From contig NZ_CP020921.1 of assembly GCF_003057965.1 (NCBI RefSeq), forward strand, positions 1,414,916-1,478,915: a stretch of 64,000 nucleotides of DNA, written 5' to 3'. Each line of letters opens with the position of its first letter. Within the stretch, counting starts at the first letter, position 1. Origin of the DNA: Thermodesulfobium acidiphilum. Its GTDB lineage: Bacteria; Thermodesulfobiota; Thermodesulfobiia; Thermodesulfobiales; Thermodesulfobiaceae. Below the pieces are notes generated by a model that had not been told where the DNA came from, ran no database searches, and saw only the letters and a list, made by a program, of their open reading frames with translations. Made by a program: the position numbers and the translations under genes. Shown in pieces: positions 23,713 through 32,580 of the stretch.

Positions 23713-23973
23713 ATGTTCGAAACTTATCTTGGATTGTTTGCAGGTCTACTTACCACCAGTTCTCTCGTGCCTCAGGTAGTAAAGGCATGGAAAACGCGTT
23801 CAACAAATGATATATCCCTCATAATGTTAATTATGATGTGGATAGGAGTATTTTGTTGGGTGATATATGGCCTTTCTATATTTCAGATGCCCATAGTATT
23901 ATGGAATTTCATAAGCTTTGTTTTACTATCAATTCTTTTATATTTCAAAAAAAATTCCAAAAATTCATGTTAG
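23713..23973 (+). CDS. SemiSWEET / PQ-loop transporter
   Basis: GLFAGLLTTSSLVPQVVKAWKTRSTNDIS...WVIYG; likely start ATG at 23713. Confidence 0.85.
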   Translation: MFETYLGLFAGLLTTSSLVPQVVKAWKTRSTNDISLIMLIMMWIGVFCWVIYGLSIFQMPIVLWNFISFVLLSILLYFKKNSKNSC

Positions 23974-25478
23974 CTCATATTCTTTACATAACTTATCAAA
24001 GCCTTTACCAATCCGTTTATGTTGTATTCTTCTGCTTGAGCCACCACATTAAATCCCAAATTCTTTGCTTTCCCTGAGGTAATAGGCCCAATAGACACAA
24101 CTTTAGCTTTTCTAAGCACTATATCTCTATAATCTCCTAATGATTCATAATAATACTCAGCTGTCTTAGAACTCGCAAAGGTTAGAAAGGTTTCTTTATC
24201 ATCATTGAAAACCATTTCGATGTCATCCTTTGAAATTTTTTCTGGTTGTACGGAATATATATGAAAATCATCTACTACATATCCCTTTTCCAACAATCCT
24301 CTTACAAGCTCATCTCTGCCTTCTTTTGCTCTCGGTATCAAAATTTTTTTGGCTTCATCAGTTCTTTCAATACAATCAACAAGGCTTTCTGCCACAAACT
24401 TCTCAGGCACAATATCAGCTCTTATCCCATACTTTAAAAGAGCTTCGCTAGTCCCATCGCCTATCACAGCAATCTTGGATCTTATACACCTGCTATCATA
24501 TCCAGATCTAAACAAGTTTTCAAAAAAGATATCTACTCCCGTTGATGAACTAAAAACAATGTACTCATAGCTATACAAGTTATTAAAAATAAAGTCAAAT
24601 TCACTTTGATTAGCTATTTGAATACACTTTATAACAGGTATTTCAAAGACCTCTGCTCCTTCTTCTTTTAGCCTTTCACTTAGTAAACTCGCTTTTTTTC
24701 TTGATCTTGTTACTACAACTCTTTTTCCAAACAACGGTTTTTTCTCAAACCACATTAAGTCCTCTCTTAACTTTACTACGTTCCCAACCACAAACAGTGC
24801 AGGAGGTTTAATCGAATTTTCTTCAGCAAGATCTACTATATTTGACAAGTTTCCAATTACCACTCTCTGATTAGGAAGAGTGCCATTTTGAATAAGTGCA
24901 CATGGTATTTCTTTATCTTTTTTAACAGCAATTATTTTTTCTACTATCTTATCAAGTCTCTCTACCCCCATAAAGAACACAAGGGTATCTGCCCCAAGAG
25001 AGTGCTCCCAATCAATAGTAGAGTTCTCCTTTGTGGGATCCTCATGCCCGGTAAAAATAGCATACGATGAAGCCACTTTCCTGTGTGTAACAGGAATTCC
25101 TGCATACAAAGGCACAGCCAAGGCTGCACTAATTCCAGGAACCAATTCAAATTCTATACCTCTTTCTTTTAGATATAAAGCCTCTTCACCTCCCCTACCA
25201 AACAAAAATGGGTCACCACCCTTTAGTCTGACTACTATTTTGCCATCAGATGCTCTATCAGCAAGTAATTTGTTTATATCTTCTTGTTTCATTGCATGTT
25301 TACTTGATTCTTTTCCCACATAGATTTGTTCACAGTCTTCTGGTGCAATTGCCAAAAGCTCTTTGGGAATAAGCCTATCAAATACCAGAACTTGAGCCTT
25401 TTTTAAAATATTCATTCCTCGTATAGTAAAGAGTCCTTCGTTTCCAGGACCTGCACCTACTAAGAAAACCTTCCCCAT
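23970..25478 (-). CDS. cobA: Uroporphyrinogen-III C-methyltransferase / uroporphyrinogen-III synthase fusion (CobA-HemD)
   Basis: VFLVGAGPG, RLKGGDPFLFGRGGEE, and a C-terminal HemD domain (VVVTRS, FASSKT, SIGPIT). Confidence 0.92.
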   Translation of the reverse strand: MGKVFLVGAGPGNEGLFTIRGMNILKKAQVLVFDRLIPKELLAIAPEDCEQIYVGKESSKHAMKQEDINKLLADRASDGKIVVRLKGGDPFLFGRGGEEALYLKERGIEFELVPGISAALAVPLYAGIPVTHRKVASSYAIFTGHEDPTKENSTIDWEHSLGADTLVFFMGVERLDKIVEKIIAVKKDKEIPCALIQNGTLPNQRVVIGNLSNIVDLAEENSIKPPALFVVGNVVKLREDLMWFEKKPLFGKRVVVTRSRKKASLLSERLKEEGAEVFEIPVIKCIQIANQSEFDFIFNNLYSYEYIVFSSSTGVDIFFENLFRSGYDSRCIRSKIAVIGDGTSEALLKYGIRADIVPEKFVAESLVDCIERTDEAKKILIPRAKEGRDELVRGLLEKGYVVDDFHIYSVQPEKISKDDIEMVFNDDKETFLTFASSKTAEYYYESLGDYRDIVLRKAKVVSIGPITSGKAKNLGFNVVAQAEEYNINGLVKALISYVKNMS

Positions 25479-25498
25479 TCTCTTACGCTCCTTAAAGT

Positions 25499-26080
25499 TT
25501 AAGATTTATTGTTGCACTTCCACGGTTTTAAAAGATTGTTGTCAATTCCTATCCTGTTTAAAGTCTTTGCTACTACAAAATCTACCATATCTTCTACTGA
25601 TTTTGGTTTATTATAAAATCCTGGGCAAGCAGGCAAAATAATGCCTCCTGCCATAATAACCCTTTTCATATTCTCAACATGAATCAAATTTAAAGGAGTT
25701 TCTCTAAAAACCAAAATCAGTTTTATACCTTCCTTGAGAGCTACATCACAAATTCGCTCCAAAAGATTTGAAGACAAACCATTGGCTACGCTGGAAAGAG
25801 TTGCAGCAGAACATGGGCAAATAATTACAGCTTCAGGTTTTTGTGAGCCTGATGCATATTTGCAGTTAAAATCACTTTCATCATAAAAGCTTACATCGCT
25901 ATACCTTTTTTTTATCGAATTTACATCGACACCCTCTTCATCCATCATCACAAGACTCGCTGCCCTGGTATATATCACACACAGATCATATTCTCTTTTT
26001 AAAACATCAATCATTCTTAATGCATACCTGATCCCACTTGCTCCAGTAATACCTATTACAATCTTTTTCAATTTATCCAC
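25499..26080 (-). CDS. ubiX: UbiX-family flavin prenyltransferase
   Basis: GITGASG, ASGS, PCS, RETP and PGFY. Confidence 0.92.
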   Translation of the reverse strand: MDKLKKIVIGITGASGIRYALRMIDVLKREYDLCVIYTRAASLVMMDEEGVDVNSIKKRYSDVSFYDESDFNCKYASGSQKPEAVIICPCSAATLSSVANGLSSNLLERICDVALKEGIKLILVFRETPLNLIHVENMKRVIMAGGIILPACPGFYNKPKSVEDMVDFVVAKTLNRIGIDNNLLKPWKCNNKS

Positions 26081-26087
26081 CTTGGTA

Positions 26088-26936
26088 TTATTTTATTAAC
26101 ACAGAAAAAATTACAAAAGTAGCATATATAAATGAACAAATAGCATTAACGTTAAAAAAAGCCATATCTATTTTAGAAAGATCGTTAGGCTTTACTAGCG
26201 AATGCTCGTATAACAGAAGGCCTGCAAATATAATTAAGCCTAGATAGTAAATAAAATTTATGTGAGCCATTATTCCAATTGGAGACAAAAAGAGTATTGT
26301 CAGAGAGTGAAATAATCTCGCTACATATAAGGAATTCTTTTCACCTATTGCAACGGGAATAGAATGAAGTCCCTGTTTTATATCATACTTTAGATCCTGA
26401 AGGGAGTACAAAACGTCAAACCCTGCAAGCCAGAAAACTACAGCCAGCATCATAAAAAATGGCACTAAACCGAAATCATTTCTCAATGCTATCCACGCTC
26501 CGCCAGGAGCTAGACTGAGTGCAAGACCTAAAACAATATGACTTAGTGCGGTAAACCTTTTCGTATATGAATAGAAAAAAACTATAAAAAGCGCTACAGG
26601 AGACAATAAAAAAGTCAAATTTCCAAGTAAATAAGAGGTCAAAATAAACATCGTTGAACAAAAACATACAAACAAAAACATATCTTTTCTTTTTACTGCG
26701 CCTTTGGGAATAGATCTCTTCGCAGTTCTTGGATTGAATTTATCAATATTTGCATCTGCAAATCGATTAAAAGACATGGCAGCAGCCCTTGCAAACAAAA
26801 GCGCTAGTACTATAAGAATCAATTTATTAATTTCAGGGAAACCATTTGAAGCTATAAATGCAGAGGCCAATAAAAAAGGCAGCGAAAAAACAGTATGTTC
26901 TACTCTTATATCGTTGAGAATGTTCGTTAGTTTCAA
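26088..26936 (-). CDS. UbiA-like polyprenyltransferase (MqnP-type)
   Basis: EHTVFSLPF, AMSFNRFADANIDKFNPRT and GFDVLYSLQD. Confidence 0.88.
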   Translation of the reverse strand: MKLTNILNDIRVEHTVFSLPFLLASAFIASNGFPEINKLILIVLALLFARAAAMSFNRFADANIDKFNPRTAKRSIPKGAVKRKDMFLFVCFCSTMFILTSYLLGNLTFLLSPVALFIVFFYSYTKRFTALSHIVLGLALSLAPGGAWIALRNDFGLVPFFMMLAVVFWLAGFDVLYSLQDLKYDIKQGLHSIPVAIGEKNSLYVARLFHSLTILFLSPIGIMAHINFIYYLGLIIFAGLLLYEHSLVKPNDLSKIDMAFFNVNAICSFIYATFVIFSVLIK

Positions 26937-26979
26937 TACAAATTGATTAATTATATTCTCAAACCCCTTTCAATCAAGG

Positions 26980-28431
26980 CTAAAATCCATATTCTTTCCA
27001 ACGTTTGCTTACTAAATCTTTTATTTTTTTGTCCATCTTGATATCAGGAGGAAATTCTCTTACCAGTCCCTCTTCTTTCATTTTTCGTGTTGCGTCTATA
27101 CCCATCTTGGAACCAAATCTTGGATAAGGTGCAGCATGATCCAGAACGTCCACCGGACCCTTTACAATTTCAATGTCCCTTTCTGGATCCACGTTATTAA
27201 GAGCTTTCCATCTTACAAATGACATATCGTGAACGTTTACATCTTCATCAACCACTATAATAAATTTAGTAAAACTCATCTGACCAAGTCCCCATAGCGC
27301 ATGCATAACCTTTCTAGCATGACCAGGATATTGCTTTCTAATTGAAACTACTGCTAAATTATGAAAAACCCCCTCAATAGGCAAGTTTATATCTACTATC
27401 TCAGGCAAAGTCATCTTTAACATAGGGAGAAATATTCTTTCAGTAGCCTTGCCAAGATATGCATCCTCCATAGGAGGTCTACCCACAATAGTAGCTACAT
27501 AAATAGGATTTTTTCTATGAGTAATACACTCAACATGAAAAACAGGAAAATCATCTTCCAAAGAATAAAATCCAGTATGATCTCCAAATGGTCCTTCTCG
27601 TCTAAGTTCTCCCTTAATTACATATCCCTCTAGTACAAATTCAGCTTGGGCTGGCACAAATAAATCAGAAGTTATAGCCTTAACCATCTCCACACCAGAA
27701 CCTCTCAAAAAACCTGCAAAAACGAATTCATCAACGTTTGGGGGTAAAGGTGCCGTAGCAGCATAAATAGTAGCTGGGTCAGCTCCAATAGCTACCGCGA
27801 CAGGCATTTTTTCCCCAGGATTTAACTTTGAGTAGTGTCTTGCTCCATCTTTGTGATGATGCCAGTGCATACCAGTCGTATTTTTATCAAAAACTTGCAT
27901 CCTATACATCCCAAGGTTTCTCTCTTTTGTCATTGGATCTTGAGTAATAACAAGCGGCAGAGTAATAAAAGGGCCACCATCAAGCGGCCAACAATATAGT
28001 ACTGGCAAATCCCCTAAATTTACACTATCCCCTTCTAAAATTATTTCCTGGCACGGAGCCTTACTTACAATTTTTGGTTTAATGTTCATAAGTCCTAAAA
28101 TATCAGGCAAAGACTTCAGAGCGTCCCAGAAGCCAATTTTCTTGGTAGGAAACCTAAGCAATTCTTCAATCCTTTTAGCAATGTCATCAGGATTTCCTAT
28201 TGCGCTTACCACTCTATCCCAAGTACCAAAAATATTAATAGCCAAAGGAAAATTAGAGTCTTTTACCTTTTCAAAGTAAAGAGCAGGTCCTCCTACTTTT
28301 ACAAATCTATCCGCAATCTCCGTTATTTCAAGATACCTGTCAACTTCAACCTTTATTTTTTTCAGTTCATTTCTCTTCTCTAAAAAGGATAGGTATTCAC
28401 CCAACGACGAAAAGGCGCTTATTTTACTCAC
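26980..28431 (-). CDS. ubiD: UbiD-family decarboxylase (menaquinone/futalosine-pathway type)
   Basis: RNLGMYRMQ, EGPFGDHTGFY, GRPPMED and GSKMGIDAT. Confidence 0.92.
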   Translation of the reverse strand: MSKISAFSSLGEYLSFLEKRNELKKIKVEVDRYLEITEIADRFVKVGGPALYFEKVKDSNFPLAINIFGTWDRVVSAIGNPDDIAKRIEELLRFPTKKIGFWDALKSLPDILGLMNIKPKIVSKAPCQEIILEGDSVNLGDLPVLYCWPLDGGPFITLPLVITQDPMTKERNLGMYRMQVFDKNTTGMHWHHHKDGARHYSKLNPGEKMPVAVAIGADPATIYAATAPLPPNVDEFVFAGFLRGSGVEMVKAITSDLFVPAQAEFVLEGYVIKGELRREGPFGDHTGFYSLEDDFPVFHVECITHRKNPIYVATIVGRPPMEDAYLGKATERIFLPMLKMTLPEIVDINLPIEGVFHNLAVVSIRKQYPGHARKVMHALWGLGQMSFTKFIIVVDEDVNVHDMSFVRWKALNNVDPERDIEIVKGPVDVLDHAAPYPRFGSKMGIDATRKMKEEGLVREFPPDIKMDKKIKDLVSKRWKEYGF

Positions 28432-28503
28432 TCCCTAAAAAAAATAAAAACTACACTAGAGCCACACAGCTCTTAAAAAGTATTATTTTATTATTTTAAT
28501 ATT

Positions 28504-28932
28504 CTATTTAACCAGAATTACCGGAACCTTTGCATTTTTTAAGATTGAATAAGCAACGCTACCCAGAAGTCCGGATAAAGGGTTTAGCCCTTTATTTCCA
28601 ACTACAATTCTATCAATATTATTTTCTTCAACATACTTCAAAATTTCTTTCGCAGGGTCACCGCCAGATAGTAATACTGCCTTTACATTAACTCCTGCAT
28701 CATCAAAAATTTTTTTTGCTTCATTCAATTTTTTGGAAAAAGCTAAATCACAAGCTTCATTAATCTTCTCTGGATCCACAAAAACATCGTCACTTACATA
28801 TGTCCAGTCATATGCGCAACCAACTGTAAGCAATATAACTTCAACCGATTGGTGCTCCTTTGCTAAATTTAAAGCAAATTCAGCAGCCTTCAATGAGGGC
28901 TTCGACCCGTCCACAGCAACTAAAACTTTCAT
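28504..28932 (-). CDS. Universal stress protein
   Basis: MKVLVAVDGS...GDPA...VVGNKG...LLGSVA...PVILVK; start ATG at 28932 after AAGGAGG. Confidence 0.9.
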   Translation of the reverse strand: MKVLVAVDGSKPSLKAAEFALNLAKEHQSVEVILLTVGCAYDWTYVSDDVFVDPEKINEACDLAFSKKLNEAKKIFDDAGVNVKAVLLSGGDPAKEILKYVEENNIDRIVVGNKGLNPLSGLLGSVAYSILKNAKVPVILVK

Positions 28933-28955
28933 TTTTACCTCCTTAAAGTTATGGT

Positions 28956-29300
28956 TTAGATTTTTGCCAGATCCATTAGAAGCCTCGGATCTGGATTTAT
29001 ACATAAATACGGAGCCTCTGTAACATCATCATAACAAAGATCTAACACATGATCAATTTGTCCAAAGTATTTATCTGTAAGGAAATCAATGTACACGTTT
29101 AGTTCTTCTTCCCAGAAAATCAGATCATGCTTAAATTTATTAATCTCATCTGGTAATACAATTCTTGCCTGCAAACTGCTAGGCTCTGGATCAGCTCAAG
29201 CACCACAATATTTTATAGGTGCACTAATAATGATATAAGCTGTTCCTTTTGTTCTCGCATGAATAAATTTTCTTGCTTCATCTGTTACTCTTATTTTCAC
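28956..29300 (-). CDS. Putative selenoprotein (HesB-like/CC-Se-motif-like) with in-frame UGA in a C-G-A-U motif
   Basis: GTG at 29300 with GGGGAG SD; MKIRVTDEARKFIH...IKYCGA-TGA(29196-98)-ADPEPSSLQAR... continues into track ORF 28956-29174. A hairpin starts 11 nt after the UGA. Confidence 0.65.
29167..29184 (-). promoter_or_regulatory. SECIS-like hairpin
   Basis: GCCU-A-GCA-GUU-UGC-AGGC, G-containing apical loop, starting 11 nt 3' of the UGA. Confidence 0.5.
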
Positions 29301-29378
29301 AGCTGCATCTCCCCACATTCAAACTAAAATCTTAATTTTTTAAAATTTAACTCCCCTCACAGCCAAATTTAACTTTAG

Positions 29379-30038
29379 TTAGGGCTTCATATGCTTTACG
29401 TTCTTGCCTCTCACAATATATAACACGTCTTCAGCAATATTTGTAGCATGATCTCCCAATCTTTCAAAATGTCTGGTAATAAACAACCAATCGATAATTC
29501 TCTCGCAATTAAAGCGTCTTTCAGTAAGTTCCTTTTTTAAATTTTGCAGGATATTGTGATAATCCTCATCTACAGCATCATCATCTTCTATTACGCTAAG
29601 AGCCATTTCTTCGTTTTTTTCAACAAGAGAAGTAATAGCGTTTCTTACCATAACTTTCACTTTCTTAGCCATATCAGGAATTTTTTGCATAAAGAGTTCA
29701 ATTGGTGGATCTTTTAACAAATTTATAGCAGACACTGCAATACTTTTCGTTTCATCAGACATCCTTTCAAGATCTACGATTATTCTCATAATCATAACTA
29801 TATATCTAAGATCCTTTGCTACTGGTTGATAAAGCGCCAGCATAGTCATGCACTGTTCTTCTATATCTATCTCAAGTTCATCAGTAATCTTCTCGCTTTC
29901 AATAACTTCTTGAGCTATTCTTGAATCCCTCTCTAGAATAGAAAGAATTACCAAATCTATCGCTCTCTCCACAAGAGTTGTCATTTCAAAAAGCTTTTTC
30001 GTTAATTCTCTGATCTCTATATCAAAATGTCTTTCCAA
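29379..30038 (-). CDS. phoU: Phosphate signalling protein PhoU
   Basis: QPVAKDLR, DLERMSD and ERLGDHATNIAE. Confidence 0.95.
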   Translation of the reverse strand: MERHFDIEIRELTKKLFEMTTLVERAIDLVILSILERDSRIAQEVIESEKITDELEIDIEEQCMTMLALYQPVAKDLRYIVMIMRIIVDLERMSDETKSIAVSAINLLKDPPIELFMQKIPDMAKKVKVMVRNAITSLVEKNEEMALSVIEDDDAVDEDYHNILQNLKKELTERRFNCERIIDWLFITRHFERLGDHATNIAEDVLYIVRGKNVKHMKP

Positions 30039-30055
30039 AGATACACCTCTCTTTC

Positions 30056-30808
30056 TTAACCAAATCTACCAGTTATATAATCTTCTGTAAGCTTTTCTTT
30101 TGGAACCTTAAATATCTGTTCTGTTACACCATATTCTATCAAACTTCCAAGATACATAAACGAAGTAAAATCAGAAATTCTTGCCGCCTGTTGCATGTTG
30201 TGTGTAACTATAACAATTACTATTTCATTTTTTAGATTCACTATCAATTCTTCTATTTTCGCAGTAGAAATAGGATCAAGTGCCGATGTAGGCTCATCCA
30301 TCAAGATAATTTCAGGATCGTTTGCAAGAGCCCTTGCAATGCAAAGCCTTTGTTGCTGACCACCTGAAAGATTTGTAGGGAGTTCCTTTAATCTATCCTT
30401 AGTTTCTTCCCATAAAGCAACTCTAATTAAATTTTTTTCACAAATCTCCTCTTTTTGTTTTTTTGAAAGCCTTTTTCCACTCATTAGAAATCCTGCTAGA
30501 ACATTGTCCTGTATAGACATAAATGGAAAGGGATTAGGTCTTTGGAAAACCATTCCAACCTTTCTTCTCACTTTATACAGGTCCATCTTAAAAATATTTT
30601 CATTGTCCAAAAGTATTTTGCCCTTAACAGATGCATTTTTGTCAAGCTCATGCATTCTATTCAGACACCTCAAAAGGGTTGTTTTCCCACATCCAGAAGG
30701 TCCAATTATCGCTGTAACAGCCCTGTCGTAAATATCAAGGTTTATACCCTTCAAGACTTCGTTTTTTCCAAAAAAGGCTCGAACGTTCTCCAATTTCATC
30801 TTTATCAT
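30056..30808 (-). CDS. pstB: Phosphate ABC transporter ATPase
   Basis: [29 protein letters not shown] and YITGRFG. Confidence 0.95.
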
Positions 30809-30819
30809 ATTTTTTTCGC

Positions 30820-31638
30820 CTACTCCCCAAGTCTTCTATAACGACCTAAAATTATACTTAAAACTGTAACAAATGTTATTAGAACTAATGCCCCAGCCCA
30901 GGCCAGCCTGTGCCATTCATCATATGGAGAGATCGCATATATAAATATTTGTAACGGTATCGCAGCCATTGGCCTTGTAGGATTTAATTCTAAAAAGCTG
31001 TTTCCAAAAGCTGTAAAAAGAAGTGGAGCTGTTTCTCCAGCTATTCGCGCAAGAGTCAAAAGTGAAATAGCTAGAAGTGGAAATTTTGCAAATCTAAGCA
31101 CTACATAAAAAATAACCCTTGTCCTAGAAAGACCAAGCGAATAAGCCGCCTCAAGCAAAAGAGTAGGAGTCATATTAAAAATCTGTTCACTAGCAAGTAC
31201 CATATAAGGTATTCCCACTAATGCAAGTGCTATTGAACCAGCAAGGCCAGAAAAGTGCCCCATTTGCTTCACAACTATATAATAAACACAAATACCACAA
31301 ACAATTGTAGGCGTCCCCTGAAGCAAAGACATGGCTTCTTTTAAAAACTTAGCAAAGAGACTTCCTGAATAGAGGTGTAAATAGAGACCACCTAAAATAG
31401 ACAAAGAAACTATTATTACCATTGCAAGTGAATCAATAATTATCGAGCCTACAATCGCCTGTTTAAATCCTCCTGAACTAGAACCTACTGGTCTTGCCGT
31501 TTCAGTAAAAAAATTAATGCTTAGCGAGCTAATTCCATCCTTTATAAGTTGAAAGAGAATAAAGGCTAAGACCAAAGATACAAAAATCGCCACAGACAAT
31601 GTAAAAATTTGAAAAACTTTATCAATAATAAACCTCAA
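30820..31638 (-). CDS. pstA: Phosphate ABC transporter permease
   Basis: [13 protein letters not shown] and AWAGALVL; operon position. Confidence 0.9.
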
Positions 31639-32580
31639 CTATGCCCTCCTGTACAAAAGCCTTAGTAAGAGCTTAGCTAAAACATTAGTAGTGAATACAA
31701 GAATAAACAAAATAAGTCCAAGCTCAAACAAAACAGATAAATATATTCTAGAAAAAGCTTCAGCAAACTCATTTGCAATAATACTTGTCAGCGTTGCCGT
31801 TGGAGAGAAAAGTGAATTTGGGAAAAAAGGCCTGTTTCCAATAAGCATTGCTGTAGCCATAGTCTCTTCCATACCCCTTGCAAGTGAGAGAAATATTACA
31901 GCTATTATGCCCTCTCTAATAAATGGAAGAATCAAACATTTAACAATCTCAAACTTTGTTATTCCAAGACTAAAACCAGCTTCAATTAAACTTTTAGGAA
32001 CTAAAATTATTAATTCCTTAATCAAAACAGTCTGAATCGGAACAAGCATCAAAGTTAAGATCAAAATAGTAGTAAAAAGACCAAATGGAGAAGGGGTCCC
32101 ATTCAAAAATGGAATAAAGCCAAACAAAGTTTTTATTATAGTTTCAATTTTATCAATATGTGGAGCTACATAAAAAATAGCCCACAAACCAAGAACCACT
32201 GATGGTATAGACGCAAGCGCATCTATAACTGTAGAAAAAAAGGAAGAAATTTTTCCTCTTGAATAAAACGAAAGAAAGAGGGCTATTGGAGTTGAAATCA
32301 TCAAGCCAAAAATTGTGCTAATAACGCCAACCATAACTGTTACAAATAAAGGCGCTATGACACCAAATTTATCGTTTACAGGATCCCAGTTGTTCGTAGT
32401 AAATACGCTTAAACCCAAATGCTCTATTGCAGGCAAAGAATTTATAAACAAAACTATAAAAATCAAAACTGGCAACAATACCAAAAAAAGTGCAGAAAGT
32501 TTTAACAACAAATCAAAAAAAGAAAAATTAGTAAGTCTCAAAGCGCCAAAATCGAATAAAAAATTAGCTTTTTTGAACAC
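31639..32580 (-). CDS. pstC: Phosphate ABC transporter permease
   Basis: LASIPSVVLGLW, ARGMEETMA and TLTSIIANEFAEA. Confidence 0.9.
   Translation of the reverse strand: MFKKANFLFDFGALRLTNFSFFDLLLKLSALFLVLLPVLIFIVLFINSLPAIEHLGLSVFTTNNWDPVNDKFGVIAPLFVTVMVGVISTIFGLMISTPIALFLSFYSRGKISSFFSTVIDALASIPSVVLGLWAIFYVAPHIDKIETIIKTLFGFIPFLNGTPSPFGLFTTILILTLMLVPIQTVLIKELIILVPKSLIEAGFSLGITKFEIVKCLILPFIREGIIAVIFLSLARGMEETMATAMLIGNRPFFPNSLFSPTATLTSIIANEFAEAFSRIYLSVLFELGLILFILVFTTNVLAKLLLRLLYRRA

What the first reader, a model, noticed from the sequence alone, without database searches (positions are those of the whole stretch)
28956..29300. Unannotated selenoprotein candidate with a CxxU motif and SECIS-like hairpin
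Seen: an SD-led 114-codon frame with one in-frame TGA in the context Y-C-G-A-[TGA]-A-D-P. A GCCU-A-GCA-GUU-UGC-AGGC hairpin starts 11 nt downstream. Known: bacterial Sec insertion uses a hairpin just 3' of the UGA with a G in the apical loop (11-nt offset in E. coli fdhF), CxxU is a common redox motif, and the MKIRVTDEARKFI start resembles HesB-like/CC-Se families. Inference: a small redox or Fe-S-related selenoprotein co-transcribed with a Usp and possibly the ubiD-ubiA-ubiX-cobA genes.
Basis: partly seen in the sequence, partly recalled or inferred. Interest (0 to 1): 0.7.

Follow-up and report, generated by a model that had tools for sequence, protein, structure and literature searches.

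The report
Unannotated selenoprotein gene in Thermodesulfobium
A small gene that databases record only as two broken pieces most likely reads its internal UGA "stop" as selenocysteine; it is a genus-restricted, distant relative of a known selenoprotein family and of iron-sulfur carrier proteins.

Summary
On the minus strand, window 29300..28956 is a 114-codon frame with a GGGGAG ribosome site and a GTG start. It has one in-frame TGA at codon 35 (Y-C-G-A-U-A-D-P), and a hairpin begins 11 nt after it.

The gene is very probably a real selenoprotein gene:
- The genome has tRNA-Sec, selB, selA and selD.
- All 6 distinct orthologues found keep the TGA.
- dN/dS is 0.03-0.18 on both sides of the TGA.
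- The hairpin is the longest invariant stretch of the gene, with 0 of 8 codons synonymously variable against 39 of 69 elsewhere.
- Profile alignments cross the TGA and place Sec on the near-invariant Cys of the CC/Se motif family NF041239 (hhalign 91%) and on the GGCSG Cys of IscA (weak, 30%).
- The predicted fold is IscA/HesB-like.

It scores below the NF041239 cut-off (18.5 against 40 bits). It was found only in Thermodesulfobium. Databases hold only its 34-aa and 67-72-aa pieces.

The mechanism is ordinary. The gene is a new, divergent member of a known kind. Its function is unknown; a redox or Fe-S/metal-handling role is inferred.

The parts
28956..29300 (-). Selenoprotein coding sequence: 114 codons plus TAA, GTG start, Sec at codon 35
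   Evidence: Translation. Orthologues in 4 of 4 Thermodesulfobium genomes and 2 metagenome contigs each have exactly 1 TGA. dN/dS is 0.04-0.18 upstream and 0.03-0.09 downstream of the TGA.
29309..29314 (-). Shine-Dalgarno GGGGAG, 8 nt before the start codon
   Evidence: Read. GGGGAG is conserved in the 4 genomes aligned. The in-frame ATG at 29318 is out of frame in 2 of those 4 orthologues, so it is not the start.
29196..29198 (-). UGA codon 35, read as selenocysteine (C32-G-A-U35)
   Evidence: TGA is present in 6 of 6 distinct orthologues. It aligns with the near-invariant Cys of NF041239 relatives and, weakly, with the GGCSG Cys of IscA.
29167..29184 (-). SECIS hairpin: 4-bp and 3-bp stems with a bulged A and a GUU loop. 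G and U fall at positions 23 and 24 counted from the U of UGA.
   Evidence: Folds. It meets the published bSECIS rules as quoted. It is invariant in 6 of 6 orthologues. 0 of 8 codons there vary synonymously, against 39 of 69 in the flanks.
29161..29186 (-). Longest invariant nucleotide run of the gene (CDS nt 115-140), covering the hairpin
   Evidence: the run is 26 nt; the next longest is 21 nt.
29205..29207 (-). Cys32 codon, partner of Sec35 in the CxxU motif
   Evidence: Invariant in the 4-sequence alignment A1 and in the 2 metagenome orthologues.
29001..29036 (-). Stretch holding the two further invariant cysteines, Cys89 (29036..29034) and Cys100 (29003..29001), followed by an N-P-D-P motif
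   Evidence: Invariant columns. NPDP aligns with the NPNA of IscA.
28504..28932 (-). Universal stress protein gene, starting 23 nt after the selenoprotein stop, with its own AAGGAGG site
   Evidence: Pfam Usp at 95.3 bits. The junction is conserved in the 4 genomes aligned.

Best explanation
Window 29300..28956 (minus strand) is one gene for a 114-residue selenoprotein.

How it is read (inferred from the standard bacterial pathway). During translation, SelB carrying Sec-tRNA(Sec) binds the hairpin that starts 11 nt after UGA-35. Selenocysteine is inserted and translation goes on for another 79 codons.

What the protein is.
- It is a very divergent relative of the CC/Se motif selenoprotein family (NCBIfam NF041239, CxxU motif).
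- Like that family, it has an IscA/HesB-type fold.
- Sec35 sits in the loop that holds the conserved Cys of that family and, on weak evidence (hhalign 30%), the first cluster-binding Cys of IscA.

What it most likely does (inferred, not tested). With Cys32 it forms a CxxU centre. This centre most likely either cycles as a selenenylsulfide redox pair, or binds and passes on an Fe-S cluster, metal or sulfur species. The invariant Cys89 and Cys100 may help.
For: Sec machinery is complete.
- tRNA-Sec scores 77.5 bits.
- selB is adjacent to it; selA is present.
- selD is itself UGA-containing.
- TGA is otherwise an ordinary stop: it ends 211 of 1,021 long open frames.

Conservation.
- The protein matched in 4 of 41 genomes searched: the window's own genome plus 3 of 3 of the same genus, and 0 of 37 others. 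Each match has exactly 1 TGA.
- Two further metagenome orthologues also keep the TGA.
- Nucleotide identity among the six is 81-95%, so they are not copies of one sequence.

Selection acts on both halves in one frame.
- dN/dS is 0.04-0.18 for codons 2-34 and 0.03-0.09 for codons 48-114.
- Amino-acid-invariant codons vary synonymously at 13 of 25 sites upstream and 26 of 44 downstream.

RNA-level constraint on the hairpin.
- 0 of 8 hairpin codons vary synonymously (Fisher p = 0.002 against the flanks; the sequences are kin, so this overstates the case).
- The hairpin lies in the longest invariant run of the gene, 26 nt.
- dS for codons 36-47 is 0.14-0.32. In the three-species comparisons the flanks reach up to 1.75.

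The hairpin fits the published bSECIS model as quoted.
- Loop of 3-9 nt.
- G then U at the start of the loop.
- 19 nt between the UGA and the loop (allowed range 16-37).
- Energy of -8.2 kcal/mol with flanks.

Other UGA genes of the same genome have similar loops.
- fdhA has loop AGUUUA with G23/U24.
- A BFD-like 2Fe-2S selenoprotein has loop CGUGUA with G23/U24.
- Two NF041239 paralogues have loop AGUUA.

Homology crosses the UGA.
- hhalign against a 14-sequence NF041239 alignment gives probability 91.2% and E = 9.8e-7 over residues 1-58, with Sec on the near-invariant Cys.
- hhalign against 14 IscA sequences gives E = 5.4e-4 over residues 1-105, with Sec on the Cys of GGCSG and NPDP on NPNA.

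Fold.
- Seven IscA/SufA/DsrR-type chains take the top 7 places among 48,161 chains, Z 6.5-4.8; the next scores 2.9.
- The same seven chains lead for a bona fide NF041239 member, Z 8.8-5.0; the next scores 2.0.
Against: - No selenium incorporation, protein or transcript has been observed. No RNA run was available.
- The hairpin shows no compensatory changes because it never varies. On its own it is not statistically unusual.
- The protein fails the curated NF041239 cut-off (18.5 against 40 bits) and matches no Pfam family.
- The link to IscA is weak by sequence (probability 30%).
- That link also rests on a mediocre model (pLDDT 66.4; the CxxU loop, residues 28-40, is below 50).
- Foldseek gave no match at E <= 0.001.
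- No orthologue with Cys in place of Sec was found. The usual Sec/Cys pair criterion is therefore met only through remote paralogues.
- All orthologues come from one genus, so the comparative evidence has limited depth.
Confidence: 0.85

Rival explanations
1. Two separate small genes. A 34-residue peptide ends at a genuine TGA stop. An independent 72-residue protein starts at the TTG at 29174, as gene callers have annotated it.
For: Public protein sets hold exactly these pieces. Proteins of 67-72 aa, named 'hypothetical protein', appear. A 34-aa and a 72-aa piece are the only 2 hits among 1.84 billion representatives.
Against: - The TTG lies inside the hairpin and has no purine-rich ribosome site before it. 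The real starts nearby have GGGGAG or AAGGAGG.
- The two halves stay in the same frame with no indel in 6 of 6 orthologues.
- Profile alignments to NF041239 and to IscA run straight across the TGA and put it on a conserved Cys.
- The predicted fold needs both halves.
Confidence: 0.05
2. A pseudogene: a simple nonsense mutation in a once Cys- or Trp-encoding codon.
For: None beyond the presence of the stop codon.
Against: - TGA is present in 6 of 6 distinct orthologues at 81-95% nucleotide identity.
- Purifying selection is strong on both sides, dN/dS 0.03-0.18.
- The hairpin after the TGA is invariant.
Confidence: 0.02
3. The UGA is read through, but not as selenocysteine. It might be read as Trp or Cys by near-cognate decoding. 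The conserved hairpin would then serve as a readthrough or regulatory signal, not as a SelB site.
For: Nothing here shows selenium directly.
Against: - The organism has the full Sec system and at least five other UGA-containing selenoprotein genes.
- The loop has G and U at positions 23 and 24, as in fdhA and the BFD-like gene of the same genome.
- The UGA sits in a CxxU motif on a conserved Cys column, the usual place for Sec.
Confidence: 0.05

Closest known systems
[quoted passage not shown] A 2026 review lists it as a predicted selenoprotein family with a CxxU motif (PMC13188914, Table 1 passages read).
   Same: - Same N-terminal layout: short strand, helix, strand, then a loop carrying CxxU.
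- Sec falls on the family's near-invariant Cys column.
- Same predicted IscA-like fold.
- The same genome holds three clearer members. One is a Cys form at 90 bits. Two adjacent genes have TGA, at 54.5 and 32.3 bits.
   Different: - It scores 18.5 bits against the 40-bit cut-off.
- hhalign covers only residues 1-58.
- It is 114 residues long; the family profile has 91 positions.
- The C-terminal half differs. It carries two extra invariant Cys and an NPDP motif that the family lacks.
- It was found only in Thermodesulfobium. The family itself occurs in 8 of 401 genomes sampled, spanning 4 genera.
A-type Fe-S carriers IscA/SufA/HesB (Pfam PF01521), and the IscA-like DsrR.
   Same: - Predicted fold: IscA 1r94 scores Z 6.5 (rmsd 4.2, 93 residues aligned). 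DsrR 2k4z scores 6.3 and SufA 2d2a scores 5.8.
- The profile alignment covers residues 1-105. Sec35 falls on the Cys of GGCSG and NPDP on NPNA.
   Different: - There is no HMM match to PF01521, even at E <= 10.
- The hhalign probability is only 30%.
- The C-terminal CGCG motif that supplies the other two cluster ligands of IscA is absent. That ligand role is recalled, not tested here.
- Cys89 and Cys100 lie elsewhere in the sequence.
HesB-like selenoprotein (NCBIfam TIGR01911, motif UxGP; PMC13188914 Table 1).
   Same: A small selenoprotein of the HesB/IscA type, with Sec in the equivalent early loop. That position is recalled for TIGR01911, not tested.
   Different: - TIGR01911 has no match anywhere in the genome at E <= 10, nor to the protein.
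- The motif here is C-G-A-U-A-D-P, not UxGP.

Membership tests
Bacterial SECIS-dependent selenoprotein gene | In-frame UGA conserved among orthologues, with coding constraint on both sides | tested here: met
   6 of 6 distinct orthologues have the TGA. dN/dS is 0.04-0.18 upstream and 0.03-0.09 downstream.
Bacterial SECIS-dependent selenoprotein gene | bSECIS hairpin: 3-9 nt loop, upper stem of at least 4 bp, G in the first two loop positions, 16-37 nt from the UGA, MFE <= -7.5 kcal/mol (rules as quoted from PMC13188914) | tested here: met
   The loop is GUU. The stems are 3 + 4 bp with one bulged A. Nineteen nt separate the UGA from the loop. Energy is -8.2 kcal/mol with flanks but only -6.7 for the bare 18 nt. 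bSECISearch itself was not run.
Bacterial SECIS-dependent selenoprotein gene | selA, selB, selC and selD in the genome | tested here: met
   all score above the curated cut-offs.
Bacterial SECIS-dependent selenoprotein gene | Homologues with Cys at the Sec position | tested here: inconclusive
   No Cys-form orthologue was found. Only remote relatives have Cys at the aligned column (hhalign).
Bacterial SECIS-dependent selenoprotein gene | Selenium in the protein | not testable with these tools
   Needs 75Se labelling or mass spectrometry.
NF041239 CC/Se motif family | HMM score at or above the curated cut-off (40 bits) | tested here: not met
   18.5 bits, E = 0.0015; 17.2 bits in the six-frame genome search.
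NF041239 CC/Se motif family | CxxU or Cys motif at the conserved column | tested here: met
   C32-G-A-U35. U aligns with the near-invariant Cys. CxxU is the motif listed for the family in PMC13188914.
NF041239 CC/Se motif family | Remote homology by profile-profile comparison | tested here: met
   hhalign probability 91.2%, E = 9.8e-7, 54 columns, N-terminal half only.
IscA/HesB A-type carrier (PF01521) | HMM match to PF01521 | tested here: not met
   No Pfam family at E <= 10. No PF01521 match in the genome at E <= 10.
IscA/HesB A-type carrier (PF01521) | IscA fold | tested here: inconclusive
   The top 7 of 48,161 chains are all IscA-type, Z 6.5-4.8; the next scores 2.9. But the model has pLDDT 66.4, and Foldseek's best match is E = 0.038.
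IscA/HesB A-type carrier (PF01521) | Three cluster-ligand cysteines: one in the GCSG loop and two in the C-terminal CGCG (ligand role recalled) | tested here: not met
   The first position is matched by Sec35. The C-terminal CGCG is absent.
HesB-like selenoprotein (TIGR01911) | HMM match, and the UxGP motif | tested here: not met
   No match at E <= 10. The motif here is U-A-D-P.

The most novel reading that the evidence does not exclude
No canonical A-type Fe-S carrier was found in Thermodesulfobium: PF01521 matched 0 of 4 genomes at E <= 1e-8, and nothing in the window's own genome at E <= 10. Instead the window's own genome carries four IscA-fold CC/Se-type paralogues (the other three genomes two to three each at the thresholds used), three of them with selenocysteine at the position of the family's conserved Cys, which hhalign places on IscA's first cluster ligand. 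On this reading these proteins are selenium-bearing substitutes for IscA/SufA in Fe-S cluster or sulfur handling. The gene studied here would be a genus-specific, obligately Sec-containing branch with its own second ligand set (Cys89, Cys100).
Probability: 0.15. Interest if true: 0.65.

Novelty: new member of a known kind. Interest (0 to 1): 0.4.

Why it matters
1. It corrects an annotation. In public protein sets this gene exists only as 34-aa and 67-72-aa 'hypothetical' pieces. One of them is Thena_1480 of T. narugense.

2. It adds a sixth selenoprotein gene to a small 1.77-Mb genome.

3. It shows a blind spot of Sec/Cys-pair pipelines.
- A 2025 deep-learning survey lists four selenoproteins for a Thermodesulfobium genome and none like this one (PMC12013277, supplement file 1, part 10).
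- Its authors say selenoproteins without Cys homologues may be filtered out (passage read).
- Whether the genome they used holds this gene was not checked.

4. The predicted-fold and profile links tie the CC/Se motif family to the IscA/HesB fold. That gives a testable functional lead for a family with no known role.

Tried and rejected
- Pfam on the read-through protein: 0 families at E <= 10.
- PDB sequence search with the orthologue profile and with the family profile: only chance-level rows, E >= 0.6.
- Rfam on 28800..29450 at E <= 10: 6 rows, all snoRNA, miRNA or SscA noise at 15-16 bits.
- RNA evidence: no RNA holder listed.
- ESM Atlas look-up: the tool does not take a protein read with TGA as a residue.
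- Hairpin statistics as stand-alone evidence: rejected as weak. The criteria were also chosen after seeing the hairpin, and they missed the known fdhA and paralogue SECIS elements, whose top stems are shorter.
- Upstream ATG at 29318 as the start: rejected, because it is out of frame in 2 of the 4 aligned orthologues.
- Wider homologue searches found only Thermodesulfobium-type sequences:
  - a profile against 1.84 billion representatives gave 2 hits, both pieces of this gene;
  - Genome contigs gave 1 locus, identical in the CDS to one already held;
  - Metagenome contigs gave 2 loci;
  - 37 non-genus genomes gave 0 hits.
- Compensatory base changes in the hairpin: none can be counted, because the hairpin is invariant.
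- Spatial closeness of Cys32, Sec35, Cys89 and Cys100 in the model could not be read with the tools at hand.
- Literature (2 papers, 3 papers): no mention of this protein in what I read.
  - Passages and one supplement part of PMC12013277 were read.
  - Passages of PMC13188914 were read.
  - PMC13582414, PMC9312934 and PMC1287953 were seen only as search listings.

Full report
**1. What is in the sequence**

The feature lies on the minus strand. Window 29300..28956 translates, with TGA read through, into 114 residues ending at TAA. The single TGA is codon 35 (29198..29196), in the context K-Y-C-G-A-U-A-D-P.

The start is GTG, preceded by GGGGAG (29314..29309) at a spacing of 8 nt. In the other five orthologues the start is ATG. 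An in-frame ATG at 29318 is out of frame in two of the four aligned genomes, so it is not the start.

Eleven nucleotides after the TGA, the sequence GCCU-A-GCA-GUU-UGC-AGGC (29184..29167) forms a hairpin. It appears in both the minimum-energy and the centroid fold.

**2. Is the hairpin more than chance?**

On the hairpin alone, no.
- The 76-nt stretch folds no better than its shuffles (z = 0.94; 168 of 200 shuffles fold at least as well).
- The bare 18-nt hairpin has -6.7 kcal/mol, or -8.2 with flanking bases.
- A comparable hairpin follows 140 of 61,250 TGA triplets in the genome. 'Comparable' means an AGUU loop, at least 7 pairs, and G at positions 20-30. I chose these criteria after seeing the hairpin.
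- Of the 1,478 TGA triplets with at least 30 open codons on both sides, 6 have such a hairpin.
- Five of those six lie inside a much longer frame (259-589 codons) in another frame or strand, so they sit within ordinary genes. Only this one does not.

**3. Organism and Sec machinery**

The window belongs to a 1.77-Mb single-contig genome. Database names on near-identical proteins place it in Thermodesulfobium.

The genome carries the full Sec system:
- tRNA-Sec at 77.5 bits;
- selB immediately beside it, 364.7 bits;
- selA at 531.2 bits;
- selD at 326.1 bits, itself with a UGA.

TGA is otherwise an ordinary stop. It ends 211 of 1,021 open frames of 250 codons or more.

**4. Comparative evidence**

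*Where the gene occurs.*
- The read-through protein matched 4 of 41 genomes: the window's own genome and 3 of 3 of the same genus, and 0 of 37 others. Each match has exactly one TGA.
- A genome-contig scan added one locus whose CDS is identical to one already held.
- A metagenome scan added two new orthologues.
- The six distinct sequences are 81-95% identical in nucleotides. All six keep TGA at codon 35 and have no indel.

*Selection on the protein.*
- dN/dS is 0.04-0.18 for codons 2-34 and 0.03-0.09 for codons 48-114. Both halves are therefore under purifying selection in the same frame.
- Codons whose amino acid never changes vary synonymously at 13 of 25 sites upstream and 26 of 44 downstream.

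*Selection on the RNA.*
- Within the hairpin (codons 39-46), 0 of 8 such codons vary (Fisher p = 0.002; the sequences are kin, so this overstates the case).
- The hairpin lies in the longest invariant run of the gene, 26 nt at CDS positions 115-140.
- dS for codons 36-47 is 0.14-0.32. For the same pairs the flanks reach up to 1.75.
- This is the pattern expected of an RNA element overlaid on coding sequence.
- Because the hairpin never varies, no compensatory change can be counted.

**5. Fit to the SECIS model**

A 2026 review gives the bSECIS rules (PMC13188914, figure-legend passage read):
- a 3-9 nt loop and a 4-16 bp upper stem;
- G in the first two loop positions, mostly followed by G or U;
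- 16-37 nt between the UGA and the loop;
- MFE of -7.5 kcal/mol or lower.

Here the loop is GUU (or AGUUU if the closing A-U pair opens). The stem has 7 pairs with one bulge. Nineteen nucleotides separate the UGA from the loop. The energy is -8.2 kcal/mol with flanks.

Counted from the U of UGA, the loop G and U are at positions 23 and 24. I recall that this is also the position in E. coli fdhF; no call tested that.

Other UGA genes of the same genome:

| Gene | Loop | Position of G, U |
|---|---|---|
| fdhA | AGUUUA | 23, 24 |
| BFD-like 2Fe-2S selenoprotein | CGUGUA | 23, 24 |
| NF041239 paralogue (par2) | AGUUA | 28, 29 |
| NF041239 paralogue (par3) | AGUUA | 28, 29 |
| selD | AGGUG | G 31 and 32, U 33 |

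**6. What the protein is**

*Family searches.*
- Pfam gives nothing at E <= 10.
- NCBIfam gives one sub-threshold hit: NF041239, 'CC/Se motif family (seleno)protein', 18.5 bits against a cut-off of 40.
- That family is listed as a predicted selenoprotein family with a CxxU motif (PMC13188914, Table 1 passage).

*Paralogues in the same genome.*
- One Cys form at 90 bits.
- Two adjacent TGA forms at 54.5 and 32.3 bits, carrying C-F-S-U and C-S-T-U.

*Profile comparisons.*
- I aligned 14 family sequences taken from 8 of 401 sampled genomes.
- hhalign of the orthologue alignment against them gives probability 91.2%, E = 9.8e-7, over residues 1-58. Sec falls on the family's near-invariant Cys.
- I built an IscA alignment from 14 PF01521 matches.
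- The family aligns with IscA at probability 82%, E = 1e-5.
- The candidate aligns with IscA at probability 30%, E = 5.4e-4, over residues 1-105. Sec falls on the Cys of GGCSG, and the candidate's NPDP on IscA's NPNA.

*Predicted structures.*
- The AlphaFold model of the candidate is of middling quality: pLDDT 66.4, pTM 0.62, with the CxxU loop below 50.
- In an all-against-48,161-chains comparison, its seven best matches are all IscA, SufA, DsrR or 'putative Fe-S biosynthesis' chains. They score Z 6.5-4.8; the next chain scores 2.9.
- Foldseek ranks the same proteins first, but only at E = 0.04-0.28.
- A better model of the Cys-form paralogue (pLDDT 83.4) hits the same seven chains at Z 8.8-5.0; the next scores 2.0.

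*Conclusion.* The candidate is a divergent, longer relative of the CC/Se family, and both have an IscA/HesB-type fold. It is not a member of NF041239 by the curated threshold. It is not a member of PF01521 or TIGR01911 either. The C-terminal CGCG of IscA is missing. Instead, Cys89 and Cys100 are invariant.

**7. Mechanism**

*Shown.*
- A conserved in-frame UGA.
- A conserved hairpin at the canonical distance.
- Complete Sec machinery.
- Coding constraint across the UGA.

*Inferred from the established bacterial pathway.* SelB with GTP and Sec-tRNA(Sec) binds the hairpin loop and delivers Sec to UGA-35.

*Inferred for function.* The CxxU centre on an IscA-like scaffold either cycles as a selenenylsulfide redox pair or binds an Fe-S cluster, a metal or a sulfur species. 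I cannot separate these two readings. Neither has been tested.

**8. Context**

All of these genes are on the minus strand:
- upstream: pstC, pstA, pstB and phoU (29379..32580);
- downstream: Usp (28504..28932, starting 23 nt after the stop, with its own AAGGAGG site);
- then UbiD, UbiA, a UbiX-type flavoprotein and a cobA/hemD fusion.

No terminator-like site lies between the selenoprotein gene and usp. One lies just after usp, at 28473..28458. Co-transcription with usp is therefore plausible but untested, and no RNA run was available. The context gives no functional clue that I could use.

**9. Rivals**

- *Two separate genes.* This is how public sets record it: 67-72-aa pieces, and a 34-aa plus a 72-aa piece as the only 2 hits among 1.84 billion representatives. 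Three things speak against it. The TTG start lies inside the hairpin and has no ribosome site. The two halves keep one frame in all six orthologues. Homology and fold both span the UGA.
- *A pseudogene.* Excluded by the conservation and the dN/dS values.
- *Readthrough as another amino acid.* Cannot be excluded without chemistry, but it is unlikely given the SECIS fit and the position in a CxxU motif.

**10. Novelty**

A 2025 survey lists four selenoproteins for a Thermodesulfobium genome (PMC12013277, supplement file 1, part 10):
- FdhA;
- the 'Moorella' hypothetical protein;
- a CopZ-type 2Fe-2S protein;
- SelD.

Nothing in that list resembles this gene. Its authors note that selenoproteins lacking Cys homologues may be filtered out (passage read). 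I did not check whether the genome they used holds this gene.

My two literature searches found no mention of this protein in what I read. The kind of thing and its mechanism are well known. The gene is a new, genus-restricted member.

I saw its UGA-x-x-UGA-stop and its hairpin myself.

Noticed in passing
L015:1501-1740 (minus strand; G000:C1:1747731-1747970), next to L014:1501-1761: A second, sub-threshold NF041239 paralogue (32.3 bits, motif C-S-T-U, hairpin loop AGUUA) lies directly upstream of the clear one (54.5 bits). At E <= 1e-5 it was matched in 2 of the 4 Thermodesulfobium genomes. It is not in the four-gene list that the 2025 survey gives for a Thermodesulfobium genome.
   Followed up: partly
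L066 (G000:C1, TGA at 1514929..1514927, minus strand): A 71-codon BFD/CopZ-like 2Fe-2S selenoprotein gene with motif G-T-U-C. Its SECIS loop is CGUGUA, with G23/U24.
   Followed up: partly
G000:C1 around 921266, minus strand (outside the window): A small ORF ends C-R-K-U-K-S-U-stop and is followed by a 14-bp hairpin with an AGUUU loop. The hairpin shares CAGUUUG with the hairpin studied here.
   Followed up: partly
Genus-wide: G000-G003: No PF01521 (IscA/HesB) match in 0 of 4 Thermodesulfobium genomes at E <= 1e-8, and none in the window's own genome at E <= 10. All four carry 2-3 NF041239 matches plus the gene studied here. Other Fe-S assembly genes were not surveyed.
   Followed up: partly
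window 29025..29045 and 29028..29056, minus strand: The second-longest invariant nucleotide run of the gene is 21 nt, at CDS positions 256-276 (codons L-D-L-C-Y-D-D). It overlaps a promoter-like site (TTGATC, 17 nt, TATGAT, with TG) that faces usp. This may be an internal promoter, or it may only reflect protein constraint.
   Followed up: no
window 23970..28431, minus strand: UbiD, UbiA and UbiX-type genes are followed by a fused uroporphyrinogen-III methyltransferase/synthase gene, in an anaerobe. I recall that such UbiD/UbiA/UbiX trios can serve late menaquinone (futalosine-route) steps. This was not tested.
   Followed up: no
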